Positions 12,466-52,729 of a stretch of 64,000 nt of DNA are shown piece after piece. Both the position numbers and the translations under genes were made by a program. Below the pieces are notes generated by a model. The model ran no database searches. It saw nothing but the letters and a program-made list of their open reading frames with translations, and was not told the DNA's origin. The first letter of the stretch is position 1, and each line of letters starts with the position of its first letter. The stretch is from Lingula anatina (Eukaryota > Animalia > Brachiopoda), in assembly GCA_051362555.1 (NCBI GenBank), contig CM120642.1, forward strand, positions 558,001 through 622,000. Reading direction: 5' to 3'.

Positions 12466-12507
<42 letters not shown>

Positions 12508-19468: not shown

Positions 19469-20265
19469 ATGGGATTGTTGTTCTGGCGGCTTCTTCTTCT
19501 GGTTTTGATGGAGTGTGTCTTGGTCCACCACACTATCTCATCAGGTAAGTAAAAAGGCCAGGTTCACATCGGAGAATGAAGTCAATACACCATGAAAAAA
19601 TGCTCCACCCATGGTGGCGGCCCGTGGGGTGCTGGTATATAAAAGCAAAGATACGAATAAATTAGACTTATCTCTCCATTTTATTAAAAAAATGCCCTAC
19701 GGCCGTTTCGGCCCTGAAGCCTCGTCAGGGGCGAAAACAAAACCCTGACGAGGCCTCAGGGCCGAAACGGCCGTAGGGCATTATTTAATAAAATGGAGAG
19801 ATAAGTCTAATTTATACAGCTATATATATAATTGTAAGAACTGTGAAAACTATTGCGCTGGTGTTAATCTGCAATTTATCTGCAATTTCAGATCACAAAT
19901 GATTTTACATTTTTAATCAATGAGTAAACCTGTTATTGGACTATAATTGGATAAATGTCTCCCCTCAGGTTGAGGTTGAGGTAATGTTTGATTTTAGATG
20001 CAGAGTCAGTTCACGGTAAGACCATTTATACAGTGGCGGATTTAGAGCCCCCCCGCCCCCCCCCCCCCCCCCCCCGTTAGTTCTGAAAAAAAAAAACAGG
20101 CACTAATATCCCCCCCCCCCCGGGAATTAGAATTTTGAATAGCTGATTTAAAGTACTAAACTGTACTTAATACCATTATTCGCCCTCTAAAATATCAAAA
20201 AAATCTGGACCCTTCAGCTAACCCCACGCAAATCATTTGTGATCTGAAAGAGCTGATTAAGACCA

Positions 20266-20344
<79 letters not shown>

Positions 20345-25375: not shown

Positions 25376-25508
25376 ACTTTCCCAAAATCAATATCAAGAA
25401 GTAATCGCAAAAAAGAAAACTAGATCTGTGTTATTATCACAGATGGAAGAAAGATTTATTTAAAGAAGCATTGAATTTAGTGTATGAATTTTGTGTCATA
25501 CAGATGAA

Positions 25509-25514
25509 AATAAA
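25509..25514 (+). terminator. Polyadenylation signal of gene A
   Basis: AATAAA 134 nt after the stop, followed by a GT/T-rich tract; conserved at 52864-52869. Confidence 0.55.
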
Positions 25515-28500
25515 ACATTGACGGCTTGGCATTTGGTACTTTTTTATGTTCTCATATTGTCAACAGATATAAAGGGCTACTCAATTGGACTTTCTTACCA
25601 AAATATATTTTTCTGGGGCAAAGAGCAAGGCCTGTCCTAGTATTTGGATTCAATGATTTATTTCATTTTTAATTTAAGACTTTAGTTAAAATGGCTAAGC
25701 AGTCATAATAAATGGCATTTGTGGTCACAAGCATTGCCTTGTTTTCACACAAGAAAATGAGGGTTTGTTTTGAATAATGTCCTTGCGCCGTGTTTAATAG
25801 GGATGTTACAAGCTGGTAATGGCTACCCAAAGAGGCAGAGAAGATAATAATGACACAAGGTACTCTTCAGATAAACCTTTATTTAAGGGGTCCTTATTGC
25901 CTTTTAGAGTCTGAATTGAGGTAATTAAAGAAAGATTACAAGATATACATATGGTTGTGGGGGGGGGGGGTTAAAGAACCTCTAACAATTCATTTTGGCA
26001 GGAAAATCCTGAGGAATGGGCCTTTAATGGATTGTTTTTCAATGTTTCAATAACATAGCACATTGTTCAAAACTCCGAATAAAACTTGACACATACATTT
26101 TGTTTAGACAGTACTCACACAAAATCAATAAAAAATAAAAATAATTAAACTAGACTTAACAGCAAAGCTGGCCAAAAAGACAGACACCATACAGGAAAAA
26201 AAGCAGTAAAACTGTCAAACATATATATATATATAAAAGTCAACCTTTAGTAATGATGGATGAGATCCAATTTTAAAGTCACATGATAAATGGAGATTTT
26301 TTTTTTTTTTTTTGAAAAAGAAACCCAGACTACTAAGAGCACAAAACCCTTCTGCTTTGTAAGAATATGGATTTAAAATACATTAATAAATAATCCTGAA
26401 TCCACCCCTGTCGATATCTTACTTCCACATCAGTACCACACCTTTCCATTCCGTGGCCATTTTGAGATTATAACAGTACCTCAAATCAGATTCCATAGTA
26501 TTAATTGAACCAGAGGTCGGCAAAATGCAAAAAAACTTCTCTTGAAATAAAATTTAAAAATTAGTAAAAAAAACAGAAAAACAGTATTTTGCTGTTATTT
26601 ATCTTTAAATGAAAGGGTAGTTTTCAGAAAATCTTCATATCTACAATCAAATTTGATACAAAATTTATGTTCAAGGTCAAATCACACACCTTTGAAAATA
26701 TTCCAGTTTGTCTACATAACCTGCAAAGCTACTTACCTTTCTCAATTCAGGGCACAAAATGATAAAATCACCGAAACAAAAAACAAAATGCGGCCCTTTT
26801 CTTCTGAATTGCACAGAAAAATATGGTGGTGTAAACGTCCGACCAGATATTTACAGACAGTATTCAATGGTGCATTTTGGGGGGTCTTTGGGGTCGTAAC
26901 CCCCCCTCCCCACCTTAACACTAATAAAATACATCGAGTCCTCGAGGTGACAATCATACTAAAATCACAATGTTGACAAGCTTACTGTATTAAAAACAGC
27001 ATTATTTTTGCATAAATGGTCAGATGAAACTGATTTTCAAGCTTTGCCTATATTTTACTTATATTCATCAGTTCTGTTCGTTTGAAGACAACAGCTCATG
27101 ACAACTCACTGGTTTTCAGGTGACAACTTATTGTGTTATTGCTGAAGCATTGCAGAACAACAACAACAATGACGGTGACAACAGACACAGGTGATGGCCG
27201 TATTTACAGATATGCTGCATCTGTACAGAAAAAAAGACAGTATACTTAGGGGAAGCCAATATTAAACATATCACACTTATATGTTAGGTTGTGGAGAGGG
27301 GCTGCCAGGAAAGTGGATATCTTCTTAACCAACTGGTATATACCAATATGTTGCATATTTATAAAAAGGTTATTTCTACAGCTATTTATTTCATATCATT
27401 ATTTCATTATGTACTGTACTTGTTACGTAGGAAAATATAATGCTTCATTTCTTTCGGACAAGTAATGAGATTCAGAGATGTATAAAGCAGACATTTCTAT
27501 ATAGGTTTTTTTCTTAGTTATTTAGTTGTCCTGGTAGAATATTTTGTGAAAGTAAATAATGGAGTTGATAAGCTTTTAATCTAGCTACGGATGTGCTAAT
27601 GTTTCAGGTAGAGAGAGATAGAACGAAGGGGGGGATTCAACACTAAAATGAATGTGTCCTCATTCTGGTTCCTTTAAGGTTTTGTTTTAAAAATGTTTCA
27701 TGCACTTAAACCACAGATGCAGGTGAAATGCTGTAGTCCAACTTTTCATACTGTTATGCTGAGAGAAAATAGAGAGAGGCTAATACAAATGAAGAGAGAG
27801 ATCTCATGAGAATGATATCAATGACACACATTGTAATTTTAATTGGACATTAAGAGAGGTTGAGTGTCTAGTCAATCTCCCTGAAACAGTGTACAAACTG
27901 TTCCATGATGACTTAAGGTTATTTATATCCCATAAGCCAAAATCAGACTTCAAACAATTTTACATAAAACTGGAGGTTACACATGTAATAAAATATAATG
28001 TTCCTGGACTTTTTTTGCTGGAGAAAAAGTATAAACTGTGCTGTTTTGGTTCAGTGGTGTCTCTATGATGTTGTCTTCAGATGGGGCCATAGTAATACTC
28101 CAAAGGTTTAATAGTCTGCAGGTTCATTGGTCCAAATGTTCACTATAGAACCTTCGGACCAATGGGCCCTTGATTAATAAACTGGTGAAAATGTTACGAT
28201 TTTTCAGACCAATGAACCTTCGGACTATTGAGAAGCTCCCGTACAGATCATGCATCTTGGGGTCAGTACCATAGAGTCCACCCCTGAGCCAGAAGACTCA
28301 TGAGAATGATATTAATGGCACACCTTGCAATATTTAATGGATATTAAGAGAGATTGAGTTTCTAGTCAATGTCCCTGAAACAGTGTACAAACTGTTCAAT
28401 GATGATTTAAGGTGGATATATATCCTGGTAGTCAAAATAAGACAACTTTATATAAAACTAGAGGTTATACACAGTCATATAATATAACAGGCTCTTAGCC

Positions 28501-30386
28501 AGGGGGGTTGGGTGGGTTCGAAAGAACCCCCTTTTTGCCGGGAAAAGGTCCCTTCAGGGTAAAATTTAATCTAGGTACACGGATGTTTCAGGGTGAAAGG
28601 TCCACTTCTTCAGAAAAATAACCCCCTTATCAAATTGCTGGCTACGGGCCTGTATAATATAATGTTCATAGACATTTTTTGCGGGAGAAAAAGTATAATT
28701 GTCCTTTTTACTGTCATGATATCATGCTAGTTGTTTAAGGGTGAAATCTGTGCTGTTTTGGTTTCATGGTGTTCTCCATGCTGTTCTCTATACAGACCAT
28801 CTTAAGGTAAGGCCAAAGGGTTCACCTCCGGAGCCAGAGGATGTGGGTTCTCCACCATCTGGGGACATAAACAATACCTGCTGTAGGATGTTAAGATGCT
28901 AAGTGGTATTGGTGGTGTTGGATCGTTCTTGGTGGCTTTATTTGCAATTGGCATAGTTAAATCATCTGAACACACTGCTATATCTACAACCAATGAGGAT
29001 TACTGAGTGATGGCTGAAAATTATTTTCAGGTATTTCAGTAGGTAAAATGAATTTGATTAATTAGTACATTACCAACCCTGTTTGTAAGTATCATAAATG
29101 TGTTGATCAGCACTGTCCCTTTCGATATTCTAAATACAATACATTGATATATAAAGAAGAAAATGAACTAAAGAACTCAAATAAAGTCACATAATGATAT
29201 ATTTCAGGGTATATAATATTAACTTGCACACCTGCTAAAAGTCACTTCATTTTTCGAAATGGATAAAACATGTTTCATGCTGAACAGAAAAAGCGGGTCT
29301 GTACATTACCTGCGAATGGCTTAGGAAAATTGGATGCGGAAACGAACAGATGTATTCAAATGAACTTGATTGTGATTAGATGGCTTCTTGTGTGCCACTT
29401 CCACTAAGAGGAACACCGCGGCACTGCCCCGGTATTCAGTGAAACCTACTTGACACTTGGATGTCTTACTGCCTGATCTGGTGAGGTACGTTTTATCACA
29501 TCACTGGCATAGCCGAAGAGTAAAACTGACTTGCTACTGTGAGGCCTTACTGCCTGATCTGATGAGGTAAGTTTTGTCATTAAAATAAATCAGTGTAATT
29601 TTCGCTTTTAATTTACCATCAAGTTGAGATTACATGACATATCTGGAACAGAAATATATTGTTTCCTTCATATCCAGTTGTGAACCTGCGGCTATAATAT
29701 TGTGAGCATTTTTAAATATTGGTATTCATATTTCTTTAAAGACACTGGTACTTGTTGGAAAGTTAAAGAGAACTGTCATTAAAATTACTACAATTTGTAA
29801 TTTTACTCATTTATTTTAATGACCGATGACAAAGACACCTTGAAACATGTACATGTTAAATAGTCTTGTGTTCACCACTTAGTATTCACTTATAATGTAG
29901 GCAAGGTAGATAAAAGGTACTACTTCTCAAACGGATTGTCCTTTGTTTTTTAGTTAATTGTCTTTGTATATATATATTGTTTGTGTATTTTGAAAAATGC
30001 GTCATGTAGTGAGCCTGTAAAATGCACAGAGTATCTGCTAACATCTTAGTCCTCAGTTAAGTAATATGATTATTACTTTAATTAAATAGATGCTAATTAA
30101 TATGCCTATGTGGAACTTTATGAGTGCACAGGATTTTTTCAGGCCATTAAATTTGTTACATTGTACTCAGACAAATATTAAAATAAATATTGAATTAAAT
30201 ATCAAAGGCTGTGCACTCGCCTCTTGACTCATCTTTGGATAATGCTTTATACTGCAACAGAGATTCCCAGTTTCAATGCTTTAAACTCTGCACACGGAAA
30301 AGAATGAAACGACATTTTACTAACTGAAAAGCCACATGATAAAATCAATTTTAGGTTAATTGTGAGCTCCAATTAACACACCTTCC

Positions 30387-30452
30387 TTTATATTATATTA
30401 TATTATATTATATTATATTATATTATATTATATTATATTATATTATATTATA
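30387..30452. repeat. (TATAT)n microsatellite expansion
   Basis: About 13 units here versus about 2 at the equivalent site in copy A (~14960). Confidence 0.9.
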
Positions 30453-35169: not shown

Positions 35170-35271
35170 ATGGGAATGTTGTTCTGGCGGCTTCTTCTTC
35201 TGGTGTTGATGGAGTGTGTCTTGGTCCGCCACATTGTCTCGTCAGGTAAGTAAAAGGGCCAGTCTGACAAA

Positions 35272-35354
<83 letters not shown>

Positions 35355-38300
35355 CTCACTAATTAAGTAGAGGGACAAGACTGACAGAGAATACATATAT
35401 ATATATACGTAGATTGACGGAATGTTCTGCCAAACATGTAAAAAAAAGGGGCCGAACTGACGGATAAAAGGTCTATACTGCATTACTCATCAGGAAAACA
35501 TAATGTATAATGTAATTAATTATATTAGTTTTTGTTTTGTTTAATTCAGTGAAGTTGGAGAGAAAATATGATGAATGATATATCAAATGTAAAAAAGGGT
35601 TTTACTGTGAAAGTGATGTAAATTTAAATTAATGTTATGAACTATAAGAACTGTCACAGTGTGGACGTCACAACACATATAAGAGGATATTTTAATAATC
35701 TATTATTAATATTAATAATAAAATACCCTATATGTAAGATGTAGCTAAATCGTAAACTAAATGAAAATGCTTAGTATGTAACTGGTTAAATCGCAAATTT
35801 CTTTTTAGCCAGTTGCAATCCTAACTGTCACTATTGCGCTTCAGATGGTGTTTATCTGCAATTTATCTGCAATTTCAGATCACAAACGATTTAACATTTT
35901 CAATCAATGAGTAAACCTATTATTGGACTATAATTGGAGAAATGTCTCCCCTCACACATTCCCCCGTTGTAATGGTGAGTTATCCCCCATAGTGAGGGGA
36001 GGTTACTAGAACTCAGTGGAGGTTGAGGTAATGTTTAATTTTAAAAGCAGAGTCAGTTCACGGTAAGACAATTTCTACAGTGACTTCAGCTAACTCCACG
36101 CCAACTTCAAATCATTCTGGATTCTGCCCAGACCATGTCAAATTATTTGTGATCTGAAAGAGCTGATTAAGACCATTTTGGGCATACTCATGCCTTGCTA
36201 TGATCATATATATATATATATATGTGATGTGGTAAAGGGGTGAGCGGTGCACATATACTACTTACATATATATATATATATGTAAGTAGTATATGTGCAC
36301 CGCTCACCCCCCATTTGGAAGGAGGACCCCAGGGGGACCTGTGACATAAGTATGACGTAACAGCACATAATCATCGCGAAGGGGGCCTCAGGTGGATCTA
36401 TGCCGAATCCGTGTCCATTTCACAATATTGGAAATCAGACGGATCTACGAATTTCATCATAAAGTTGTAATAAAACTCTAACATCCGTAGCTTGGTATAC
36501 TGATACACCATCACACCAATATGCAGAGGCACATCAAATTTTATTACTTTTTTATTCAACTCTATTTCGTAGGTATTTTGAGTTGTTTGGTCTAAGCGCC
36601 TAAAGCGAGGATTGCACACTTTTACGAGGCCTTTGATTCTCCACAGTATTCGGTGTCGCGGTGTTTTTCTTTGTTTGTCACCGTCTTACCGTAGCCCGAG
36701 TTGCCAATGAGTTTCATGGTGTCGGCAATGATAGTCTTTGATTTGTCTTGGTCTACTTCTCTTCGAGCTTTGCTGACCGTGTTACCAAAATATTCAAAGC
36801 AGACATTCGGCGTGTACTCGACTACCTGATAGATCCACAAAACACGAAGACCGTGTGCCAAATACCATTTCAAAAGAGGGGTGGCCAAAACGATTTTTCC
36901 CCAAAGAAACTACCAATCAATGATCGTCTCGGAACTTTCATGATGCTGTTCTCTTCGGTGAAATTTCTCATAAAAGGCCCAATGTCATCTCGGGTGATGG
37001 TGCTATTTTTAAAGACAGGAGGCATTTCGGAAAATCGTGATCGTAGATCCGATGGTACTTCTACGTCACACTCGATGAATCCAAATAATTCGTCACCTTG
37101 AATGGCTTGTACAATTTCTTCAAATTTTAGCCTCAATTTGTTTTCCGTGGGGAGTTTGTATCGGTTGACAAACATGGGGACGTCAACATTTTCACGTTGA
37201 AGTCGTTTCCACTCACACTCCCACATTTCTATTAAATTGTACCCACATTTTTTTTTTTGTATCTGCTTTTTTTTCCGGTTTGGATTCGTAGGGATTCCAT
37301 TGAGAGTTTTTTGGTTTCGTTAAATTCTAAAAACGTTCAGTCATTTCTTTGGGTGAGATGGCAATGGTGGACGTGAAAATAACAGCCATGGTACTGGTAC
37401 ATGGTCTTCGAGTTCTTACAATACCCATCAACCGGTAGACGAGGACGATACCCAACGCGCTTTTTGGTGTTGTTGAATTGATGTCTGATGTTTACGCCAT
37501 CAGAATGGGCAACCCAGTCTAACCACATCGTAGCTTCCCTACCACGATGATGGGAATATTCACGTTTGAACCTAGATTCCTCACGTGTGCCCGTGAGCAT
37601 GGGTTGTATCAAGCACCAAAGGTATAAAGCATTGGCATCGTAACCAATGATTTTTTGCATACCTTCGGTGCTTGTCCACTCGTTTCCATGGTTGTCTTCG
37701 TAATAAAGGTCTTATTCCACTCATGGTAGCAATGAAAGATTATGCTGGGTCCACCCACTATGGCGTATTATACAAATAGTGCAGGTGGCTATTTTTGTCG
37801 TCCAAAAGGGTAAAATAGGCATCTCCCACGTTCTGAAAAAGGTATTTTAACGTCAACCCAGGCACGCTTATGCCATCTTTGAACATATCAATACCTCTTT
37901 CTTCATTGAAGGTAAACATTTTGCCCACAGCTTGTAACGTTGGAACAACATCTTTATTGTTATACCATGTAAGAAAATCACGCATTGTTTTCATGTTGTT
38001 CTCCCGCCAAACTTGTTTGCACAATGCGTAATCTTCTTCTCTAATGGTGGTTTGTTTTAAGTTGGAATAAAAAGCTTCTCGAGGAGGAATGTCGGAGTGT
38101 TCGAGTTAATCCAAGGAGGCCATCCATTCGTACAGAAAGAACCCCTTGGACTCTTTGCACTCAAACACCCTAAGGAATTGCCAGTAACTACAAACCGGAG
38201 CTAGGTAATTGCAAATATCCAAAATTTTAAGGCTATCAGACATCAACACCATAAAGTTGTTGTTTCATTTTACCACAAACATGTCGCTTCCGCATTTAAC

Positions 38301-41300
38301 AACAGTGGGAAAAAAACAACTTTTTCATGCCCGCTATTAAACCCTAACACGGGTAATTCTTTCAAATACTTCCGGAATTTTTAGCTTAGTTTAATTAAAT
38401 AATGTCCCTTTCAATCGGTGTCATCGTCACCATCGTCATCGTCCGTGTTCTCAGTCTCGCTCTCCAAATCTTTTGCAATTTCTTGGTCTAATTTTTCAAA
38501 AACTCAGGCAAACTTATTGAATTGAATCTTGTCTTGTCTGCTGCACGACTCATGTTTTGTAAGACAGCGATGAACTGTTGCACAGCTATTGCCGGCTGAC
38601 TGTTGGAGATAATGCACGTGGGTTTGTCATATCCAGGCACATTACTGCACACGCTTACACTTAGAAACTGGTATTCGTTTTCCAAGCGAAGCTTTTGGCC
38701 GTGTTCGTGGTGTTCGTGTTTAGACAACAGGCACTCGATGTCGAATGTGGCTCAATATCAGTAGAATCAGTCTTCCTCGGGGACAACAATGCCTTCGTCT
38801 TCCAGTTGCTCGAGGATTGTTTGCTGTGGCACGTATGCTTTCCCAGGGAAACAGTACTCCATGGTGCCGTTACAGGTCTGTTCGGTGCAGGGCGCCTTTA
38901 TGCTTAAACATTTTGTCATATTTCGAGCAGCAGAAAGAACTGGCATATTTACCCATGTCGCTGATGTAGGAAAAATGATGCTCGTATAGGTTTACTACCA
39001 TTGTCTCTTTGTGCCTGGTCATAGATCGACGGACAAGCTGTGCAATGGTTTTGCCATCTTCACATTCCTCTAACTCGTAGGCTGTGATGTTCACCTCAAA
39101 GATGTCTTCTTGTGTGTTAAGCTTTTGAAGAGGGACGCCTTTAAGGGTTTTACTTCGACATCCCGTCTCTGTTGCATATGTTTCAAACAACCGTTTGGTA
39201 GTTTTTTCAAGTCCATGAACAGGCCAGCCCCTGTGCAAGGCGAGACATCTGAAGATACACAAATTATTGTTGTACGGTCCATGATTATCTCCCTGCAGTG
39301 CGATCACATCTAGATTGTTCAAAATGTGATATGGTAAAGGTATACCTGCTCCAATTGGGTGACCTTTAGGTTTTGTCACATAAAGGGTAGCGTTGGTGAC
39401 CATATCCACCACCCATTTCGAGTTTGGTGGCTCTTTTGTATCATGAACTGTTCTTCAAAAAAACAGTGATTGTTGCTGCTGGGATGGTAGTACTGCAACA
39501 CCCCCGTCTTGCTGTTTCTTAAGAAGAATCCATACAAAATAAAAGGCGGTGTGTTGGTCATTTAAAATTTTTTGCGTTGTCTGCACTTGTAAATGTCTTT
39601 CCACAAGTAGGACATTCAAAGGGTTTGTTCTTGTTGTGCGTCAGTCGACGTCTGTTGAGGTGATCAGTTCAATAAAACGTCGCGTGGCAGATGTCGCAGC
39701 TCAAGTGTTTATTGCCATGAGCCACACCTTTGTGGCGAGATAGAGACCTTTTCAAACAAAACATCTCTCCCCAGTGTTCACAGGCGTATGCCATGGCTGC
39801 GGTATGTCTGAAATCAAGAAACACCAGAATATAGACATTAGACCTTTGTCTGATTGGTTCATTGCAAAACGTTAATTTATTTTGATCGGTTTAGATAGTT
39901 ACTGACTTGTGGTTGGATGGATGGCTAAATAAAAACCATTTCGTTTATAATCAAAATCAAAACGTATCTAACATTTGATGACGATGAACCCACCGTTTGC
40001 GAAAGAGGAAGATCAAATAGCGAGTTTCAGGTAACACCCGTTTCTGATTGGTTACTGAACAGAATATTTAAACAAATGTACAATTTCACCAGGCAGTTAA
40101 AGAATTGATGACAGCGAAGTATTCACTGATTGTGCTCCCGAAAATCATCCCTTGCATTCTCGAGTGCCTTTTTGCAAGGAAGACGATCGAATACTCAGTT
40201 ATCTAAACTGGCTCGGTATATTTCTTATCAACTCCATACCTCTAGCCATCAGCGGGTTTTACAGGGATCAAGAGGCATCAAATACAGACGAAGCGGTCCT
40301 TTGCTTTAACTGTCGGGTCAGTCTTAGGCTTTGTTCACATGGAATGTCTATTTTCTAAAAATCTATTTTCTATTCGCGCTATCTTATGATCACGGTCTGT
40401 GCCCTGAATATCCCACCGCGTAATAACTGGCAGCACGAGCCAGTTACTATAAATTACTATAAGTAACTGGCTCGCGCTGCCAGTAATTAAGCCGCGGGAT
40501 ATTCAGGGCAAAGACCGTGATCATAAGACATACTGCGAATAGAAAATAGAATTTAGAAAATAGACATTGCATGTGAATGAAGCCTTAGAAACTAGGATCC
40601 ATTGAAAGATGCAGCTGATGTCGAACACGAGTGCCACAGTCCACAATGTACCATGAATAACGTTGACAAGAGACTCAAGAACCCACTAAATGTTCCATTG
40701 ACCTCCGAAAAACGACACGAATTAGTTTGTCCCGATAGAAAAAAATCTAACTACACACCCAGTACAATGAAAACACTGTTGAACATAGGCTTTGATGAAG
40801 TGGACCCTGCTCCGTGGCCTAAGCCGTATACCCTATTCTGATTAGATTTTGTGTAGATCCGATTGGTTAAAAATATTTACTCCAGAGACTGTTTTAAAAA
40901 AGGCATTATTTAATAAGTGTCTATTTAACATTTTGCATTCTTCGAGAACTGTTATGGCAAGTCCATCCATTAAAATCGAGTGCGACGAAATAAGATGTGT
41001 AGTTGCATGTTGTCAGGGACAGACAGATGTAGTCAATGACCAAAGAGATGAAACGGAATGCGACAAAGAAACTGAGGAACAACCTAGCACATGTACAAGA
41101 ATATGGCATTACATCAAAACTTTACTCTGTAGTGTGAAACAAAACGCAGACAACTAAAAACGTCATCATGAGAAAAAGACCATCAGGAAACAGTAAGATA
41201 GATGGTTACTTAAAGAAAATATATTATGACCCTTCCAATCCAGCTAGTTTTGGAAGAGCATTGAAATTATATGAAGTGGCGAGAAAAGATAAAAGAAAAT

Positions 41301-42691
41301 CGGCCTGAAACAAATTAAGGAGTTTTTGGCCAAGCAAGATACGTATACACTACACGCTGGCATCAGAAAACGATTCCGTACCAATCGCGTTGTTGTTGGT
41401 CGTACGGATCAGCAATGGCAAGCCGATTTAGCTGACCTCACCAAATTATCAAAGTACAATAAAAGAATGAAATTTTTGTTAACTGTGATTGATGTATTTT
41501 CAAAGTACGCGTGGGCCGCGGCCATTAAATCAAAAACTGCTGATAGCGTGCTACAAGATTTTAGCAATATTTTAGCCGGAGGTCAAAAACCGACAATCCT
41601 ACAAACAGATGCCAGAACAGAATTTACAAAAAGAAAATTCCAGGCATACCTGAAAGAACAAGGAATAACCATTTTCACAACAAAGTCAGAACAAAAAAGT
41701 TCGGTCGTCGAACGGTTTGACAGAACCTTGAAATCTCACATGTACAAATATTTCACCGCTAATCACTTGTCAGATTCTTTCGAAATTTTGAAGGGCTGTC
41801 GTCAAGGGGACCACTTGTCACCCTATATCTTTCTCCTTTGTGCTGAGGTTCTCACAATCATGATAAAGAATAATAAAGATATTTGCGGAATAAAACTTGG
41901 TGACACCGAATTTAAAATAGCCCAGTATGCTGATGACACCACCCTTACAAGGTATATTAGATGGTAATAGGTCTTCTTTCTCAGAATCTTTCCGTACATT
42001 AGATTGTTTCTCAAAAATGTCAGGTCTCCATATCAACAACATTAAGACTAAACCAGTGTGGACTGGCTTAAGAAAATGTAGTCGGGAAGTTTTTCACCAC
42101 GTTAGATGGAAACTTGATTGGGGTTCGACTCAATTTAAACGATATGGTCACTTTAAACTTTGAGAAGCAAACAAGATTTTAGCAATATTTTAGCCGGAGG
42201 TCAAAAACCGACAATCCTACAAACAGATGCCAGAACAGAATTTACAAATAGAAAATTCCAGGCATACCTGAAAGAACAAGGAATAACCATTTTCACAACA
42301 AAGTCAGAACAAAAAAGTTCGGTCGTAGATAACCATTTGGTTTTTTCTGTTGCCTGTTTGAACACGTCAAGAAAACCGCTTGCTTCTCCGTACATTTGTG
42401 TAGCTAAGGTTCGTACTTGGAGAACATCTCTCGGGTTTTTCAAAAATATGAAATAGTGGCTATTTGAACAAAATGATTACGTGTTGTTACGTCACACTTA
42501 CATAACAGGTCCCCCTTTAAATGCTAAGAGTTGATTATGTAATAGTAAATAAGGTTATGTAATGATTTATAATATTACATGATATTACGTAACAGATCCA
42601 CCTGAGGCCCCTTCACGATGATTACATGCTGTTATGTCATACTTATGTCACAGGTCCCCCTGGGGTCCTCCTTCCAAATGGGGGGTGAGCG

Positions 42692-42729
<38 letters not shown>

Positions 42730-45700
42730 CAAAGGCCCGGACCAAATCTAGTCCTATGCATAAAAAGCCCAGACCCCATGTTGGCTGGGCCGATTCTTTA
42801 TGGTGCCTTTGCATTGTAAACAGCATAATGGGCAAGTTTATTGACCAAGTTAATTGGCCAAGCTGCCAGTTTGTTTGTACGGCATGTGCAGGGGATGTCT
42901 TAGATCAAGGCAGATATTATGATACTTACAGGTGTGGCAAATGGGATATACTTGTATTTCACTAATTCATTAGCTGTGATTTGTAAAATACATCCGGGGA
43001 TGATAATAGAGCAAAGTTTTGCTATTAATTCACACCTTTCTTTGTAATTTATCCTTAAGAAAATACAGATTTTCCCAAAAGGTCAACAAAACATTAAAGG
43101 ACAGACTTTTTCCTATAATCTGTATAAAATCTAGATAACTAAAATAACACACTAACAAATGGAGCCCACCTTTAATTTAACATTTCTTTAGTAAATGTTA
43201 CTAAATCAATCTACACGTCTTTTAAACATCTTTAAAAATATCATGTATATACATTACTTTTAACATCAGACTGAACTAGTGAAAATATAAAGATACCGGT
43301 ATAATTGTAATAGTTTTGGTACAAAAAATAAAATAATAAATAGCAACAAAATTACATATATAGATATACATCATATAATTATATATCTGGTATTTCAGAG
43401 GCTAGGTTAGAACCTTGGTTTAATCCTTATCCAGACCCATGTGAGCCTAACCCTTGCCTCAATGGTGGGTCTTGCATTAGACTTGGATTTGGAAATGAAT
43501 CAGACTACTTTTGCAGGTGTCCCATAGATTATTTTGGAGGACGATGCATAATACGTAAGCTTTGCCTGCTAAAGAATGCCAACCTTTGATTAAAGCCTGT
43601 AGATAACAGCAAATATTTCTAGGTTGTTATGCAAGAAATTAAACTGGGATTTATAATTATATTAATTGTAAACAAAAGCTTTCTTGGAAGAAATTATTAA
43701 AATAACTAATATAATTAAATTTCATTTATATAAACTTTGTAAACTGAAAGAGCATGTATAACATGTAATTGGTTTTACAAAATTACTTTTCAGGCAGATG
43801 TGACGCTAGCCCCTGCTTTAATAATGGCACTTGTGTAGTGTTATTTGATGATATACATGGTTACATACAGGCATGCAACTGTACTGCTAATTTTCATGGA
43901 GACCATTGTGAGTTAGGTAACATTATAAGGGCTGTACATAATAGCAAAATGTTCCAGGTTATAATGCAGAAAAATTAACAATGACAGAAGTTAAGTAAAT
44001 AAATATAGTAATTGCATTTGACCCTCCTGATGTGCTTCATTTACAACATATGTATGTGTGGTACCATTTATTTAATGTTGATGCATGCGCTTAGTAATGA
44101 CACAGAAAGGCGTTCATCCTTTTAGTGAGGAAATTGTGAATTTGACAGATACTGAATTTTTAAAGTCATAAATTCTTAAAATTCTATAAGTATAATGGTC
44201 GTTGGTCCAAATTAGAATTCATTTATTCTAGGCAATGGACCCACCAGAAATAAAACGTTTTTCTACAGACCTCATTCAGATGACATAACTAACACATTTC
44301 AAGTGACCAAATGATTAAGTGATATTTTATATAATCAAGTCATATATAATGATGTTGATGAAAAGTGAACTATGTCAATTTATATTTTTCTTTTTGGAAC
44401 TTAATCTACAGTGACATGTGGAGCAAATGCCCTGTGTATTCATCCAGCCACATCTAACATGGGGCATCATCAGGAATGTCCAGTAGAAACTGGCTACAAA
44501 TGTGTTTGCAATTATGGTTATGCAGGAGACGGAATAAACTGCACAAGTAAGTTTTATTTATTTATTTTTTTTTTTTTTGAAGTGGTTGGAAATATGTGAT
44601 TTAAAATAATGGAAATAGTGATGGGGTAGGAATAGTAGATAATGTACTGTAAGTGAGCCTCCTTTTCAGTGCAACTGTGTGTTAGAGTTGATGTCACTTC
44701 CTGTACTGAGATTCTGTTTCTTTACCTTTTTAATAAAGAAAGACTGTATACTAATAAATGCATGTATTTACCATTAGAGGTATTTAAATTAAAAGTGCTA
44801 CAGCTCTGAAAACAGACCTTAACATAATTATAATATGGCATAAAATTGTTTGAATCAGACTCTGATGCCAGGTAGGTAAGCTTTGCCTGCTTGAAGACTT
44901 AACATATCTGCATTGGTTAAGGACTAGATAGCAGCGAATAGCTAGGTAGCAATGTGGAAATATAATAGATAGAACAAAAATAATAAGATCATTTGATATG
45001 TATAATGGCCATTGGCCCATTACAGAATTCATCCATTCTCATGCAGTAATGCACCGGAAAGAAATAACACTTTTTTACAGACCTCACCCAGTCACCCAGG
45101 CCTATAACTAACATATTTCAAGCGATTAAGTGATATTTTATATAATCAAGTCATATAATGATGTTGATTAAAAGTAAACTATATCAATTTACATTTTTCT
45201 TTTTGGAACTTTATTTACAGTGACATGTGGAGCAAATGCCCTGTGTATTGATCTAGAAACATCTGAAATATCACATACTCGGGAATGTCCAGTAGAAACT
45301 GGCTACAAATGTGTTTGCAATCATGGTTATGCAGGAGATGGAGTAACTTGCATAAGTAAGTTTTATGAAATTAACAGATACTTGAATGGTTGGAAATATG
45401 TGATTTTAAATAATGAAAATGATGGGGGTTACTTAGTGGACAATGTAAGTGGGGATATATCCAAAGTACATATTTCCCATGAAATGTGATGGAAATATTC
45501 AATTCCATAAATTATTTTCCCCCCAGGTTATTTGGTTATTTGCAAGTCATTATAATAATTATAATTTATTGAGCACAGTAATGATATATATATATATATA
45601 TATATGTGGAAAAATAGTAATATTAGTAAATAAATTAGAAAAGAAAATTGTACATATATGAAGTTATACAATATACATTCTAAGCGGAATTCTAAGTATT

Positions 45701-48700
45701 TCTAATTAATTGTGTTTTTTCATAATTTTACTTATAGAACTTCCTACTGAAGTTGCACCCTGTGCAGACGGTGGATTTTGAATTTAGATTTATAATAATA
45801 AATGGTCTGGTTTACTATTGTTAGCTTGGCTGCCTAATTAATAAGCCCCTGAACCATCAGGGTGGTAACCCCTTTACTGGCGTCATGAACAATTATTGCA
45901 ATATACTAACACGAACCTTAGATTTGAGAGCATAAATGCACACATTTTAAGTAAAACAATACCAGTCACAAATTTACTAGCCCGACACACAACATTGGTC
46001 AAAAAGGTTGTCCCACCCCCATTCCCATGCACTTTTATATACAAATGATCACCTCACAGCTGTAAATTGTTAGAAATAATGCTTTTTATTACAGATACCG
46101 TGTCTAACATGATTAATGGTTAAAAAATAAAATAGTGGTGAAAATATACATATTTTATACCATTAAATAAAATTTATAAGAGGTACCCCCTCAAATCCCC
46201 TGCTTCACTGTGACTTCTACAGATGTAAAGAAATGTCTATAAAATTGAAAAAACGCCATCAAATGTCACCAAATTCACACACAAATAGCATTAGGGTGTG
46301 CTCATAAAAGATCACGTGCCTAACAGCGTGTGCGTCTACCGCGCACTGCAATTATCTCCTGTAGACAGCGCGACAAGCCTTCAACATGGGTAACAATTCT
46401 GTTTTGTGAGATTTTGTCCCAAACTTCTTAAACAAGTTGGGGGAGTTGGTCCACGTTTTTATGGGGTTGGTTCTCCTTTGCATTGCACACTCCAATTCAT
46501 GTCACAGTTGATTAGTAAGTTTAATATCAGGACTCAAAGATGGTTGTCCCATCCTCAGAGCCCTATGTATCTGCAGCAAATCATTCGCCAGACGAGAGCT
46601 GTGAGCAAGTGCATTGTCACAATGAAGCCAGTAGCATCTCTGAAGTCACCTCTGGCCATTGTTGATGCTCGGTAACAACTAAAATATATCGCACCTTAAA
46701 GTAAATGAAAATAAACTACACTATATATAATGGGGGCATATGGTACTCGAAATATGGCTGGTGACATTGCTTTTACTAAAAGTAAAATAAATGGTGTGAA
46801 TATGATATAACCTTAAATAATGTCAAGTAATAAAAATTATGTAATGTTTTAGACCTGGAATATGCAAATATCTAAATTTAAATAAGGCATATTGTAATGA
46901 AACCCTTTATACTTATATCATATAACGTGCAAAACACAATTGATACGTAATTTCCATGGTTTGTGTCAGATTTACGTACAGTCGCTCAAAGAATACCCAA
47001 GGACACATAATGACCAGTTTAATGGTTTATTTGTTGACGCTTGGTAACTACCTGATCTACATGAGGTAACCTTCGTCTGAACCCTCCAAGCAATGCATCT
47101 ACCATGAAGAAGCAAACTTGTTTCTACATACTGGTATCAGAAGACTTCCTGTTTGATAACATACTTAAATAATTCAAGTGATTAAGTGATATTATGTTAA
47201 AGCAAGTCATATCATGATTAAAAGTGAGCGATATTATCAATTTACATTTTTAAAATCTTATTTACAGAGAGGTGTGGGGCAAATGCCACATGTATTAATA
47301 CAGGCAATTGTGAAAGAGGGCGTAGTGACCAATGCAATGAAGATCTTGGATTCAAATGTGTTTGCAATCATGGATATGAAGGGGACGGAGTTGTTTGTAT
47401 CAGTAAGTTTTATAAATTCCTCACATTACTGGGAGGATCAGAAATTAGCTTCTCACGCTCTACAGGTTTATATCTGAAATATTACTTGTTAGTGAGGCAT
47501 GGTTCTCAGACCTTTATTTGTCTATCCCCTCTTGTTTGCCCATATAAACCTCTCTTTCTATACAAATATCTTTATCTTCAAATAAACTGTCAACTGATTG
47601 CATAAGTGCATGTATGTCTATACACCTGGAAGAGACATTTGACTTACTCAGCTACTAGTATTTTAATGCTTTAAAAATATTATATATATTGATAAGACAC
47701 TTCATAACATCCTAATATTGAAAATGTACAGAAAATAAATTAAATAGCAGACTGTAATAAATTGATAAATTTTTAATTTCCTAAGCCCATGAAAGGGTAG
47801 GGAAACAGAAAATTTGTTTAAAGCATAAAATTAAAACAACAGCCCCGATATTTGGCACTGTTTAATCCAAACTCTGACGCCAGTTAGATATGTTTTAGCT
47901 GCTTAAGGATATTGTTACCTTTTGCCAGAAACCTTGCCTTTGTTTAATGAAAATATTTATTTAAGGGCTCATAACTCCCAAATGAAACCATTAAAACAAA
48001 AGTGATGGCTACAATCCGGTGACCTTGGCACATTTTACGTGATAAAATCTTCAGGGATGAAGTTAGGCCTCACACCGATTCCTATCTCAGCTCAAAATAG
48101 AACGGTGTTAAACTGATGATTACATTAGAATTACCTATGCTTATACATAGCAGCGATAAATATTAACACTGATATTTGATATTTCCAAGGGGATTTTTAT
48201 TGTTTTAAACCAGCACAAAGATAGATGCATTATTGAACAATTAGATGCAAGAAACAACACTTTTTTCGGTATCTGGATGATAATTAAGGGTGACCATACC
48301 CTTAAAGGTACACATAAGCAAACTTGTTTTATAACCGGGATCAGATGACTTCCTCTTTAATAAAAATGGTGACATTGTGTTGTGTAAGCAAGATATACGA
48401 TGATGCTGATTAATAGCTGAATGATGTCAATTTACTATTGTTCTTTTTTTAATTTATTTCCAGAGAAGTGTGATACAAATGCCATGTGTATTGATTCAAA
48501 CACGTCTCAAATATTGCCTACTGATCAGTGCTTTGAAGCCATGGGCCTCAAATGTGTTTGCGATCAAGGTTATGAAGGGGACGGATTTACTTGCAAGAGT
48601 GAGTTCCACAAATTCTTCAGATAATTGAATGGGTCAGAAATATGTGATTTTAAATAATTATAATCAAAGCTTAGTCAACTTCATATTTTATCAATTTACA

Positions 48701-51700
48701 TATTCAATTTTAGGTAAAACATGTATTGTGACAAATGATCCATGGTATGAAATTAACATTTGGATTAAATTGCTGTTGTGTTTTATAAAACATGAAGGTT
48801 TGATCCTGCAATTCAGTATATATTCAGCCTGGATTATTTAATATGTGCAGTGCAATCCCAGACAGCCTCAGTGATCTGGCCCACATCTGGCCCAGATCTG
48901 GCAACGTCTGGCAATGTCTGGCAAAAGGTATGGCCCACGTATGGCTTGCCAGATGTGGGCCAGATGTGGCAATGTTTGGGCCAGATCTGGCCCAGACATT
49001 GCCACATCTGGCCCAGTCCACATTTGCTCATGTGGCCAGATGTCGGCCCAGATCTGGCAATATCTGGCAAAGGTATGGCATGCCAGATGTGGACCAGATG
49101 TGGGCCAGATCATATTTAAATGGGCCAGATTAGGGCCAGACATGGACCACATATGGCCCAGATTGTTTTTTTTTTATTATTTCACATTTGCTCATGTGGC
49201 CAGATCTGGCCCAGATCTGGCAATATCTGGCAAAGGTATGGCATGCCAGATGTGGGCCAGATTAGGGCCAGACATGGACCACATATGGCCCAGATTGTTT
49301 TTTTTTTTTTTTCTTTTTTTAATTATTTTCAATTATTCAATAAGATAACTATAAAAAAAGACATACAAGACTCAAGATTCAAGTATTTATTCTGTGCTAA
49401 AACCCTAAACAAAATTATTACACATTATATAACCTTGCTGGCAACTAACATGCAACAAATTAAGGGCCACTCCTTGTCTTTTTGTACAAAACAATTTGTA
49501 TGTTTGAAAAAAAAAAAAAAACCACACTGCAAAAAGGCAAATATACAGACACTTAACAGGAGGAAATGTCACTTACATACATGTAAAGAAAACAGTTATA
49601 ACAACAATTTTTTTTTCAACACAAAGCTGCTCATCGAATCTGAATTAACACAAATTACAAAAATTGTAATTAATTATGCATGTACATGGGGGGGGGGATT
49701 TGAGGGGGAAATATTTTTGCACACCTCAACCTAAATAATATTATACATTGTCATTTTTAAACTAATTCAAACATATCATTAATAATAATAATCACTAATG
49801 AATATAGTTTTGTAATGAATAAATCTTGAATAATGAATGAAAAAACATTCTTTTTTAGATGATGGAGAGTTATAACAAAATTATAAATAACCATGCAGTA
49901 ACTGTTTCAATTCAACTTGCATGCTGGCTACAATACTGTACATACATGTAAATTCTGAAAAAAAAAATATGTATACTCCAGCACAGATATAGATGTACAA
50001 TTAAAAGAGAATTACATGTGCACAAAAACAAACCCCAGTATCAATGCTTTTGAATTAAATCACATCACCAATCAAATCACTCAATGAATTGAACCAGTTT
50101 GCAATGCTTGCGCTTTTTTCAAATCCATAACACTAAGAAATGATACACCCGCCTCCTTGACAAGCTTATAATTAACAATGGAACAAGTAACTCTACCAAG
50201 TTAACAAAAGTTCATTCAAATGTCAAGTCCAAACACAACATCCCTTCCTTTCTTGGAGAGAAACGGTCCTTTCAAAACATGTTAATTGACAGTTCAGTCT
50301 TTAAAATGTCTTTTCAAACATTTGCAGAATAGCATATGAACTCCAACTTTTATTCCTTAAACCACACTGAAAATTCTCAAAACTAATCAACTCATATCAA
50401 ATCCCATGTCCTTTCACTACTACTGGTCTCTTCCTTTGCTTGCCTTTACGTCATATTCAAATGTTCCCTTCACTTTTAAAGGTTTCTCAGACGTGTATGA
50501 ATAATACTGTTTGTTTTCTGGTCCTCCACAAGAGCCACATTTATTTTTCTTGGACTTCAGCATTCTCCATGTATTTTCATCAATGATATTACAATATGCA
50601 CCTGAATCTGGTAATACACTGAGATTAACACCTCCTCTATATCCTCCATGTCTTCTGTGCATTGGTTCCCACACCAAATGTATATGCACTCCTGGATTAT
50701 CATGTTCAAAGCTGTCATTTACATGAATAATAGTTTCAGTTTTGCAGAGTTTTGCAAAGTGATCCAACGTTCCATGTTTTCTCAGTCAGGGAGTTTCTAC
50801 TTCGTTTTTCATGTCTAAACTCGTAATGTTTAGACTGGCTTGGTTTGTCAAATGACTTCAGTTTCATCATACTCAGTTTCTGGTGTTCCAATTTCATTCA
50901 AAGCGTTAACTGTCTTATGTATATTCATGTTTCTAACCTGTGTTTGGGAGAGTTCTGAAAATATCTTGTAAGTTGTACACCTGTCCCTGCTGAATACAAC
51001 ATAAGCGCGCGTCTCCTTTGTCATGTATTTTTAATTTTCTATCTTTGTTCATTATTCATGCCGTTCGTTGGTTTTGAAAAGATCAATCTTTTCCGTCAGC
51101 GAAGAGTTTAAACTGTCTAGCCATCGCGTCGAGCGTGACCCTAATGTCTCCGGACTTCTGTACGGTTCGAATTCCGTAATTTCACATTTTTTCTCCATTT
51201 TTTTCAAAGAAACTTGACTCACAGTTTTGCACTAGTGTTTATCCTCGTCGCCAGTGTTGATGCCTTCGAAATAAATCGCACCACGAATCAAATCACTCAA
51301 CGAAATTGTATCAGTTTGATACGCTTGTGCTTTTTTCATATCCATAAGTCTAAGAAACGCTACATCCGGGTCCTTGACCGGCTTAGCATAAAAAGCGGAA
51401 TCTTACAACAGCGGAACGAGTAGTCCAAAAAAGTTTTAGATCAGTGAATTCATTCAAATGTCAAGTCAAATTAAACAAATAGCACACTTATGAGGGGACT
51501 TTGAAGAAAAAAGAGAGAGATAAATTAAATCAAAATTTATCAAATGACGTCAGTTCAATGCATTCAGCTCACTGGTCAATAAAAAATAAATAAATAGAAA
51601 ATAAAAATTGAAAATGAAAGTACCATATCTGGCCCAAGTCTGGGCAGCATCTGGCAAAATGTGGCATAAATGACAGACTTTGCCAGACTTGGCCCAGATC

Positions 51701-52729
51701 TGGCAAGTGTCTGGCAAAATGTGGCATAAATGCCAGACTTTGCCACCCTGAGCTTCAGAGCTGACTTGACACTAACCTTTTCACTGTAGCCTATCTCCAT
51801 CGTGTCAAGTAACCTCTGACCAGATTCGAGTGCCCCCGCCGCCCGCCAATCAAATTTAAAGCCCGCACTCAATGACTCATTGAACGATCTAGCCAATGAA
51901 CGCGAACGAGTCAAAGCGCGCTTTGTTCAAATCCGGACCAATCAAAGATAAGGCTGAATATCAGGGACTTGCCGTAACCTGTGGGCAGCACGCAAAATAC
52001 ATCATCCCTCAGTAGATAATGATGCAGGGCATCATACTGCTCTGGTTTCAATTCCGATATACTCCATGCTTTCTTTGTGTACGGTTATGCACTCGGAACC
52101 ACTCGGAACTACTCGGATGTCTCCGCACTCGACAATAACTATGTTGTTAGTATGGAGCTTGCGGAATCAGCCGAGGATTGCCGATTGACGATCAACCAAT
52201 CAGCGTTTTCACCAAACTTTGGTGAAAAATTTTGAAACATGGATTCGATTGGCTTATATAAAATAGGTCAAACTATTTTCGTCAGAGGTTACTTGACACG
52301 ATGGAGATAGGCTACAGTGAAAAGGTTAGTGTCAAGTTAGCTCTGAAGCTCAGGGTGGACTTTGCCAGACTTGGCCCAGATCTGGCAAGTGTCTGGCAAA
52401 ATCTGGCCCAGATATTGCCAGACGTTGCCAGATCTGGGCCAGACGTGGGCCAGATTACTGAGGCTGTCTGGGATATTTGCAGGTACTAGGAGTCTTTGTA
52501 GTTTACACATCTAAAGTTTTGAAAGATTTGTTCAATGTAAGGAACTCAATAATGAACAATTAACGACCACTGTTTTATCATTATTTTAAAGATTTAGTTT
52601 TTTTTTTTTCTTTTTTTTTTTTTGTTAAAGAAGTATACATTAAGATATTTAATGGTGTACAATGAATGAACCAAAATGAAATCATACTGCTCATTTACTT
52701 TTTCATTTCTTACAGGGACCACTGTATAA
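35170..52729 (+). CDS. Secreted EGF-like repeat protein, paralog B (signal peptide + 6 EGF-like modules, ~302 aa), apparently intact
   Basis: Phase-1 GT-AG exons: 35170-35245, 43399-43554, 43794-43916, 44412-44546, 45221-45355, 47268-47402, 48464-48598, 52716-52729 (stop). They join into an open frame of 909 nt; possible micro-exon 45738-45770. Confidence 0.85.
35274..35352. repeat. Compound (TA)n(GA)n microsatellite
   Basis: Direct reading. Confidence 0.95.
36398..39794 (-). pseudogene. Polinton protein-primed family B DNA polymerase, fragmented
   Basis: Successive frameshifted ORFs with [31 protein letters not shown] and YCEMDTDS; truncated right after DTDS at the left TIR; N-terminal zinc-finger-like relics. 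Confidence 0.92.
40101..40841 (+). pseudogene. BIR-domain (IAP-like) gene of the Polinton, interrupted by a MITE
   Basis: Removing the MITE gives [11 protein letters not shown]...LAISGFY...[33 protein letters not shown], i.e. the BIR Cx2C...Hx6C motif, with TAG where the conserved Trp (TGG) is expected. Confidence 0.8.
40327..40584. mobile_element. PIF/Harbinger-type MITE, full length and almost fully palindromic
   Basis: TTA TSD at 40324-26 and 40585-87; same family as 21086-21252. Confidence 0.9.
40954..41157 (+). CDS. Small Polinton ORF of unknown function (67 aa)
   Basis: [20 protein letters not shown]...; intact; preceded by GATTGG and TATTTA motifs; stops 11 nt before the integrase ATG. 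Confidence 0.45.
   Translation: MASPSIKIECDEIRCVVACCQGQTDVVNDQRDETECDKETEEQPSTCTRIWHYIKTLLCSVKQNADN
41168..41763 (+). pseudogene. Polinton retroviral-like (rve) integrase, frameshifted and C-terminally truncated
   Basis: [41 protein letters not shown] and VVERF motifs. Confidence 0.9.
41764..42160 (+). mobile_element. Internal fragment of an L1/Tx1 RT fused to the integrase
   Basis: [23 protein letters not shown]...QYADDTT...SGLHIN; no 3' tail. Confidence 0.85.
42327..42465 (-). pseudogene. Fragment of the Polinton A32-like packaging ATPase
   Basis: [26 protein letters not shown]...[11 protein letters not shown] resembles the KNPRD..Q...LA.Q C-terminal region of Polinton ATPases. Confidence 0.75.
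50060..51475 (-). mobile_element. Degenerate, internally deleted Gypsy-like LTR retrotransposon
   Basis: Diverged direct repeats ~50070-50230 and ~51286-51470; primer-binding site TGGCGACGAGGA (51242-51253, minus strand) after ...CAACA; aspartic protease relic [11 protein letters not shown]. Confidence 0.7.
51744..52357. mobile_element. MITE with 77-bp TIRs and 8-bp TSD (hAT/P-like)
   Basis: TSD GACTTTGC at 51736-43 and 52358-65; TIRs 51744-51820 and 52281-52357. Confidence 0.88.

What the first reader, a model, noticed from the sequence alone, without database searches (positions are those of the whole stretch)
19469..52729. Tandem secreted EGF-repeat genes with hypervariable N-terminal modules: signature of diversifying selection
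Seen, from manual codon comparison of A and B (replaced vs synonymous-only codons): EGF1 11 vs 0 plus a 2-codon indel; EGF2 14 vs 2; exon 4 against 4b at least 8 vs 2; exon 5 9 vs 2; exon 6 3 vs 2. The mature N-terminus is rewritten (VRTSFILWFGPYI vs [12 protein letters not shown]) with an in-frame indel. All indels keep frame and all but one cysteine are kept. Exon 3 differs at 20/123 nt versus roughly 10% in the next intron; exon 5 differs at 14/135 next to a nearly identical intron. Known: exons outpacing introns on a fixed disulfide scaffold is typical of recognition proteins and toxins. Inference: an uncharacterised variable secreted ligand family (immune, allorecognition, gamete recognition, adhesion or toxin) with variable N-terminal and conserved C-terminal modules. 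The function cannot be read from the sequence.
Basis: partly seen in the sequence, partly recalled or inferred. Interest (0 to 1): 0.85.

Follow-up and report, generated by a model that had tools for sequence, protein, structure and literature searches.

The report
Variable-tip secreted EGF chains of Lingula
A lamp shell (Lingula) carries tandem genes for small, predicted secreted EGF-chain proteins whose first two domains change amino acids about 2.5 times faster than neighbouring non-coding DNA while the last domain stays conserved, so they likely serve as variable recognition proteins, most likely in defence; their rear domains have an unusual cysteine spacing.

Summary
Observation confirmed, with corrections. 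Two tandem genes (A 19469-25375, B 35170-52729) encode signal peptide + two canonical EGF domains + three or four derived modules; relatives were found only in Lingula anatina. Neutral A-B divergence is 8% in flanks and at synonymous sites. Against the flanks omega is 2.6 (EGF1, p=0.003), 2.4 (EGF2, p=0.0025), 1.3-1.7 (modules 4-5, not significant), 0.35 (module 6). Coding-only tests are weaker (omega 2.4, p=0.09) and the signal rests on multi-hit codons. Replacements cluster in the Cys3-Cys4 loops and linkers (16/27 vs 9/39). Decay of A does not explain EGF1-2 but probably explains exon 5: A has lost a splice donor and a cysteine. The near-identical intron is a likely conversion tract. New: modules 4-6 appear to lack EGF Cys1 and carry a new loop cysteine (rewiring inferred). 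RNA shows a family member expressed in 1 of 3 runs, not allele A or B. Function is not shown; defence recognition is my best guess (0.45), gamete recognition next.

The parts
6369..25587 (+). Duplication unit A (upstream non-coding blocks plus gene A)
   Evidence: self-blastn; blocks 7-13% diverged from B
19469..19544 (+). Gene A exon 1, predicted signal peptide, phase-1 donor
   Evidence: matches N-terminus of P0001
20490..20642 (+). Gene A exon 2: 13-codon extension (second in-frame acceptor at 20529) + canonical EGF1
   Evidence: PF00008 27 bits
20887..21009 (+). Gene A exon 3, canonical EGF2; following donor reads AT instead of GT (21010)
21672..21812 (+). Gene A exon 4, derived module; 4a-like upstream and 4b-like downstream flanks
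21813..23724 (+). Intron 4 of A, only 2.8% diverged from B (likely gene-conversion tract)
23725..23859 (+). Gene A exon 5, derived module; last cysteine replaced by Arg
24820..24954 (+). Gene A exon 6, conserved derived module
25362..25375 (+). Gene A exon 7, last four codons and stop
   Evidence: same end as P0001
26936..52941 (+). Duplication unit B
35170..35245 (+). Gene B exon 1, predicted signal peptide
43399..43554 (+). Gene B exon 2: 12-codon extension (second acceptor at 43435) + EGF1
   Evidence: PF00008 37.7 bits
43794..43916 (+). Gene B exon 3, EGF2
   Evidence: PF00008 25.2 bits
44412..44546 (+). Gene B exon 4a, derived module
45221..45355 (+). Gene B exon 4b, derived module (nearly identical to first module of P0002)
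   Evidence: RNA depth
47268..47402 (+). Gene B exon 5, derived module with a seventh (odd) cysteine
   Evidence: RNA depth
48464..48598 (+). Gene B exon 6, conserved derived module
   Evidence: RNA depth
52716..52729 (+). Gene B exon 7, end and stop
53532..64000 (+). Start of a third unit C (upstream blocks only; its gene, if any, lies beyond the window)
   Evidence: no family exon found there by tblastn

Best explanation
These are tandem duplicates of a Lingula gene family for predicted secreted EGF-chain proteins whose two front EGF domains have changed faster than neutral DNA in their loops and linkers, likely because they bind a changing outside partner, most likely microbes or parasites, while the rear modules likely form a conserved disulfide-braced stalk. 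Shown: gene anatomy, symmetric phase-1 exons, excess of replacements in EGF1-2, conservation of module 6 and of the cysteines, exon duplication and shuffling across the family. Inferred: secretion; positive selection as the cause of the excess; unequal crossing-over and gene conversion as the source of the mosaic flanks; rewired disulfides in modules 4-6; recent damage to copy A (birth-and-death turnover). Guessed: that the partner is non-self rather than a gamete.
For: Omega against 2,306 nt of flanking DNA (8.0% diverged): EGF1 core 2.61, EGF2 2.43, extension 7.6, module 6 0.35; synonymous divergence 8-9% equals the flanks, so exons 2-3 are not an older imported tract. Replacements: 16/27 in Cys3-Cys4 loops and linkers vs 9/39 elsewhere, p=0.003; neutral expectation 5.2 of 29. 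The same sites differ in A, B and P0001 at 18 columns vs 11.8 expected, P=0.005. 1 of 31 cysteines lost vs 6.4 expected, P=0.007. Introns show no excess of adjacent double changes. Four RefSeq loci in L. anatina with different module orders and an isoform that skips EGF1 (P0003). Multi-paralog diversification with turnover is the pattern of invertebrate immune families (own knowledge). Family transcripts in 1 of 3 RNA runs.
Against: Only two DNA sequences. Coding-only ML tests are not significant for the core (p=0.09); removing codons with adjacent multiple changes drops omega to 1.38, p=0.23 (a biased, over-conservative filter). The loop+linker class was defined after seeing the data, and loops are tolerant anyway. 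Flanks could be partly homogenised by conversion (intron 4 is). No tissue, induction or binding data; no pathogen-binding domain; modules are acidic. Neither window allele was seen in RNA: 17 of 17 exon-6 reads carry letters that A and B both lack. Copy A may be non-functional.
Confidence: 0.45

Rival explanations
1. Gamete-surface recognition proteins (egg coat or sperm) diverging by sexual selection, working like ascidian HrVC70.
For: HrVC70 is an EGF chain polymorphic between Cys3 and Cys4 and in linkers, O-fucosylated, with one EGF duplicated in a sister species (PMC9265791, passages); the same pattern is seen here, and the Cys2-Cys3 segment with the O-fucose consensus (motif recalled) is unchanged at 0/10 sites. 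Lingula spawns freely (own knowledge). Expression is restricted to 1 of 3 runs.
Against: No ZP domain or anchor; Lingula has separate sexes (own knowledge), so no self-sterility role; several diverging paralogs with shuffled modules.
Confidence: 0.22
2. No positive selection: relaxed constraint after duplication plus gene-conversion mosaics and a few multi-base mutations give an apparent excess.
For: Coding-only tests weak; signal depends on multi-hit codons; conversion and unequal crossing-over evident; A has a lost donor, a lost cysteine and a long module-5 branch (0.21 vs 0.02-0.05); the bulk site class fitted omega about 0.9-1.
Against: Relaxation caps omega at 1, yet EGF1-2 exceed nine or so separate flank blocks at 7-10%; changes fall on both copies and recur at the same sites in a third sequence; B-only comparison 4a vs 4b also leans non-synonymous (12 vs 1, n.s.).
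Confidence: 0.18
3. Matrix, mucus or adhesive protein (mussel-plaque-like or shell matrix) with tolerant loops.
For: EGF-only secreted architecture; RefSeq names P0154 'adhesive plaque matrix protein 2'; odd cysteine in module 5 could cross-link (inference).
Against: Acidic, Tyr 4-7%, Lys 2-3%, unlike Tyr/Lys-rich mussel Mfp-2 (recalled); 0 of 6 family accessions in a shell-proteome supplement that lists RefSeq accessions; structural roles do not predict omega above 1.
Confidence: 0.08
4. Deterrent toxin or receptor mimic acting on EGF-family receptors of predators or parasites.
For: EGF-fold toxins exist (PMC8851504, passages); EGF1 of A and B keeps Gly-x-Arg before Cys6; rapid loop evolution on a cysteine scaffold is typical of toxins (own knowledge).
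Against: Cys1-Cys2 gap is 4, not the 7 of EGFR ligands; the Arg is absent in P0001; no dibasic release sites between modules were apparent; low expression; no venom apparatus known in brachiopods (own knowledge).
Confidence: 0.07

Closest known systems
Lingula anatina RefSeq models XP_013418649-51 ('jagged-1a', 'stabilin-2'), XP_013389479, XP_013385403, XP_013415194
   Same: Same family: signal peptide, canonical EGF plus derived modules; P0001 has the same five modules and the same end.
   Different: Names are automatic and misleading (no DSL, no membrane anchor); no paper names five of these accessions (the sixth was searched only in one supplement). P0001 lacks the exon-2 extension and has a third version of EGF1; the second subfamily has another module order.
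Ascidian vitelline-coat sperm receptor HrVC70 / HaVC80
   Same: EGF chain, variation in Cys3-Cys4 loops and linkers, repeat gain by exon duplication, O-fucose sites (PMC9265791, passages).
   Different: HrVC70 has 12 EGFs and a ZP domain in its precursor and varies among alleles in a self-sterile hermaphrodite; here 5-6 modules, no ZP, variation among paralogs, derived modules.
EGF_3-type domains of NELL1, nidogen-1, thrombospondin, uromodulin
   Same: Best structural neighbours of the predicted module (VIA-align Z 3.3, rmsd 1.9, 31 aligned to NELL1; Foldseek best E 0.67).
   Different: Weak matches; those domains sit in large mosaic proteins; the Lingula module has spacing C-x5-C-x13/15-C-x7/9-C-x-C-x10-C, with a 13-residue insertion.
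EGF-fold toxins (ant Mg1a; sea-anemone gigantoxin, recalled)
   Same: EGF fold, Gly-x-Arg before Cys6 in EGF1.
   Different: Single released domains with growth-factor spacing; here a multi-module chain with Notch-like spacing.

Membership tests
Canonical EGF-like domain (modules 1-2) | Six cysteines with EGF spacing; Pfam PF00008 above cut-off | tested here: met
   A2 27, B2 37.7, B3 25.2 bits vs 21.5; A3 was given out of frame and not rescanned, its spacing is 4,5,13,1,8
Canonical EGF-like domain (modules 4-6) | Cys1-Cys6 spacing of the standard motif | tested here: not met
   Spacing 5,13-15,7-9,1,10; in P0154 the module follows the signal peptide with no earlier cysteine; 2 of 7 modules pass the EGF_3 cut-off and most match only the C-terminal half
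Canonical EGF-like domain (modules 4-6) | EGF fold and 1-3, 2-4, 5-6 disulfides | tested here: inconclusive
   AF2 model pLDDT 82, strands 6-10 and 28-32; best matches are EGF domains but weak; disulfides could not be read from the output
Jagged/Delta Notch ligands (RefSeq name) | DSL and MNNL domains, transmembrane anchor | tested here: not met
   Only EGF families on P0001; gene ends four codons after module 6
EGFR ligands and their toxin mimics | Spacing CX7CX4-5CX10CXCX8C (PMC8657471, passage) | tested here: not met
   EGF1 4,5,10-14,1,8; EGF2 4,5,13,1,8
EGFR ligands and their toxin mimics | Gly39/Arg41 equivalents (PMC8851504, passage) | tested here: inconclusive
   Present in EGF1 of A and B, absent in EGF2 and in P0001
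HrVC70-type vitelline-coat receptors | C-terminal ZP domain in the precursor | tested here: not met
HrVC70-type vitelline-coat receptors | Variation concentrated in Cys3-Cys4 loops and linkers | tested here: met
   16/27 vs 9/39, p=0.003, between paralogs
HrVC70-type vitelline-coat receptors | Gonad-specific expression and sperm binding | not testable with these tools
   RNA runs carry no tissue label
Mussel adhesive plaque protein Mfp-2 (RefSeq name of P0154) | Tyr/Lys-rich basic EGF repeats (recalled) | tested here: not met
   All 11 modules net negative at pH 8; Tyr 4-7%, Lys 2-3%
Lingula shell matrix proteins | Detected in the shell proteome | tested here: inconclusive
   0 of 6 accessions in the PMC13425148 supplement; non-detection only
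Invertebrate secreted immune recognition families (FREP, C1qDC, lectins; recalled) | Known ligand-binding domain; binding to or induction by microbes | not testable with these tools
   No such domain by Pfam; no binding or challenge data

The most novel reading that the evidence does not exclude
Lingula has invented a rewired EGF module (first cysteine lost, a new one gained in the hairpin loop, giving nested 1-4/2-3/5-6 disulfides) and uses it as the constant stalk of a soluble recognition family whose hypervariable EGF tips are diversified by point selection, exon skipping, exon shuffling and unequal crossing-over: an EGF-only counterpart of the variable secreted immune receptors of other invertebrates.
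Probability: 0.2. Interest if true: 0.75.

Novelty: new variant of a known kind. Interest (0 to 1): 0.45.

Why it matters
Brachiopod defence and gamete-recognition molecules are almost unknown; a small family with a variable tip and constant stalk gives concrete candidates that tissue RNA and binding assays can sort quickly. The derived six-cysteine module, if its disulfides are nested as inferred, is a natural example of a disulfide moving within the EGF fold and a compact scaffold that tolerates a 13-15-residue variable loop. Fast evolution of lineage-specific secreted cysteine-rich proteins is itself common, which caps the interest until a function is found.

Tried and rejected
No whole genome is held for this window, so copy number and the gene of unit C could not be read. 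No RNA holder was listed by the index; this is no evidence. No reads could be laid on copy A, so its AT donor is unchecked (assembly error, private allele or fixed) and its splicing unknown. No RNA splice joints appear among the rows shown; splicing rests on exon-limited depth and RefSeq models. Profile search of PDB sequences with the module alignment: 0 hits. Foldseek: no match at E<=0.001. Atlas searches: generic EGF clusters only. Full-length AF2 model of P0001 was poor in EGF1 (pLDDT under 50 for residues 17-67) and not used. Simple Nei-Gojobori counts (omega 1.5-2.1) were set aside in favour of a model with intron-derived AT-biased rates. Mixture-model omega of 40-53 on 7-10% of sites is not trusted as a value: two sequences, driven by multi-hit codons. 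The exon 5 versus intron 4 contrast was rejected (conversion tract). Exon 4 selection not significant (p=0.11). Literature: no paper with five of the accessions; searches listed none on this family; subscription papers, including a recalled 2018 survey of Lingula immune genes, are not in the library. The 2015 genome supplement uses gene numbers that I could not map. No complex prediction was run: no candidate partner.
Full report
Setting. The window is AT-rich animal DNA made of three tandem units, A about 6369-25587, B about 26936-52941 and the start of C from 53532. A single exon used as query found only two proteins, both Lingula anatina RefSeq models at 93-95% identity; earlier notes on this genome also name Lingula. 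No whole genome was available.

Gene anatomy. Both genes have a signal-peptide exon, symmetric phase-1 module exons and a 14-nt last exon. From exon lengths A would give 258 residues and B 302. RefSeq P0001 has the same five modules and the same four last residues; isoform P0003 skips EGF1 and P0004 reads into intron 6. B has two copies of exon 4. There is no membrane anchor or other domain, so the RefSeq names are misleading. Copy A shows damage: the donor after exon 3 reads AT, the last cysteine of module 5 is Arg, and two further donors are weaker than in B. Since all exons are symmetric, skipping exon 3 would keep the frame, so A need not be dead; only 1 of 31 cysteines differs against 6.4 expected without selection (P=0.007), so the damage is recent.

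The selection signal. The neutral baseline is well fixed: A and B differ by 6.7-8.3% in four upstream blocks and 12.7% in the first, 8.5% just upstream, 6-10% in introns 1, 2, 3, 5, 6 and the 3' flank, and 8-9% at synonymous sites. Intron 4 is the outlier at 2.8%, a likely conversion tract, and was left out of the baseline. With a codon model using intron-derived mutation rates, coding sites alone give omega 2.37 for EGF1 core + EGF2 (p=0.09), 3.05 with the extension (p=0.02) and 1.59 for all exons (p=0.11). Sharing the branch length with 2,306 nt of flanks gives EGF1 2.61 (p=0.003, indel-adjacent codons masked), EGF2 2.43 (p=0.0025), extension 7.6 (p=4e-6), exon 4 1.71 (p=0.11), exon 5 1.34 (p=0.37), exon 6 0.35 (p=0.034); with intron 2 alone, the most diverged flank, 1.93 (p=0.015). 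Against this: dropping the 7 codons with adjacent multiple changes leaves 1.38 (p=0.23). Introns show 18 adjacent pairs of differences against 16.5 expected over six segments, so doublet mutation is not generally raised here, while EGF1 shows 7 against 2.8. Replacements sit in the Cys3-Cys4 loop and linker (16/27) rather than elsewhere (9/39), and the Cys2-Cys3 segment is untouched (0/10); this class was chosen after the data and the HrVC70 paper were seen. With P0001 as third sequence, EGF1-2 have 5 A-only, 8 B-only, 7 P0001-only and 12 all-different columns; 18 all-different columns over modules 1, 2 and 4 exceed 11.8 expected (P=0.005). Exon 5 has 8 A-only and 1 B-only change and a long A branch, which fits relaxation of A. 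I put real positive selection on EGF1-2 at about 0.8.

Recombination. A's exon 4 has 4a-type upstream and 4b-type downstream flanks, and 4a/4b flanks are older (13-17%) than the A/B split, so A most likely lost one exon-4 unit by unequal crossing-over. A DNA contig of another sample skips 811 nt between the 4a and 4b upstream introns, the same arrangement. P0001 and P0002 share an identical module 5 while their module 4 differs.

The N-terminal extension. It lies between two in-frame acceptors; P0001 begins EGF1 at the second. It differs at 13 of 36 nt with a 3-nt indel, far above intron level, which argues that it is coding in A and B, but no read covers it.

The derived module. Modules 4-6 have spacing C-x5-C-x13-C-x7/9-C-x-C-x10-C; module 5 has a seventh cysteine. 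Their start resembles the Cys2-Cys3 segment of EGF_3 domains and their end Cys4-Cys6. A second subfamily (P0059, P0154) has the same module in other orders, in P0154 directly behind the signal peptide, so no upstream cysteine supplies Cys1. Of 196 fetched proteins 7 match the spacing, 6 of them these Lingula models and one an unrelated-looking environmental sequence; a profile search of 1.84 billion representatives put two Lingula proteins first and otherwise multi-EGF proteins, mostly matched on the C-terminal half. The AF2 model of module 4b (pLDDT 82) puts the second cysteine in a strand that fits the EGF Cys3 position and the third before a helical turn; its best neighbour is NELL1 EGF, 31 residues over the 44 (Z 3.3). 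By homology and elimination the bonds would be 1-4, 2-3, 5-6. This is inferred; the other reading, a standard EGF with a long Cys2-Cys3 loop, is how Pfam aligns several modules and is not excluded.

Expression. Laid on B exons 2-6 at 88% likeness, run X10 covers exons 4b, 5 and 6 on one strand and not exons 2-3; X13 and X16 show no depth on exon 5 and little or none on the others (6-25% of each run read). All 11 exon-5 reads and all 17 exon-6 reads at the listed sites carry the residues of P0001/P0002; A and B both lack three of these letters. So a family member is transcribed in one of three runs, and neither window allele was seen. A B-like exon 3 (3 differences in 253 nt) and a more distant one occur in another DNA sample.

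Mechanism. A predicted secreted chain with a conserved rear and front domains whose exposed loops diversify is the layout of a recognition molecule. Diversification among several paralogs with duplication, shuffling and decay favours many outside targets, hence defence (0.45); the match to the HrVC70 pattern (PMC9265791, passages of sections 3.2, 4.2 and 8) keeps gamete recognition second (0.22). EGFR-ligand spacing is not met (PMC8657471, one passage; PMC8851504, passages). The family is not among the shell proteins of PMC13425148 (passages and supplement searches); PMC4595640 (passages and supplement searches) reports EGF-collagens and 1.6% heterozygosity, and I saw nothing on this family in those passages. 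PMC11686035 (passages) added nothing. Other papers were seen as search listings only.

Verdict. A real, annotated but uncharacterised Lingula family; selection supported at the two front domains only; an unusual EGF-derived module as the main new point; function open. New variant of a known kind, interest 0.45.

Noticed in passing
window 58047-58573 (two copies at about 12100-12225 and 29455-29580): About 86-bp tandem array, 6.3 copies in unit C against two in A and B, each unit holding a GAG|GTAAG donor-like site; resembles the splice-junction minisatellites noted earlier in this genome and hints at an unrecognised upstream exon.
   Followed up: partly
window 36400-39454, minus strand: Broken ORFs in B's intron 1 that read like a DNA polymerase B of a Polinton/Maverick-type element (recalled resemblance; 0 Pfam hits for five pieces), with an integrase-core ORF at 41293-41964 (rve) and inverted ends at 36298-36399/42594-42694.
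   Followed up: partly
window 3195-4928 minus; 12767-14314 plus; 61276-61608 minus: LINE-type reverse transcriptase ORF of 578 aa and further RT fragments.
   Followed up: partly
window 9872-11487: 146-bp satellite, about 11 copies, only in unit A.
   Followed up: no
window 48700-52500: 3.8-kb insertion in B's intron 6 with GC-rich 11-mer repeat arms in inverted orientation at its ends.
   Followed up: no
window 45834-46738: The near-identical intron 4 holds a very high-copy genomic repeat (summed contig depth above 100,000 in a DNA run), present in both A and B.
   Followed up: no
window 21097-21162 and 40323-40594: Short palindromic insertion in A's intron 3 with a longer relative in B's intron 1.
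   Followed up: no
window 59104-60513: Sequence resembling the promoter-side region of A and B (17929-19348) occurs in unit C out of order and at 75-83% identity: an older partial duplicate or a repeat.
   Followed up: no
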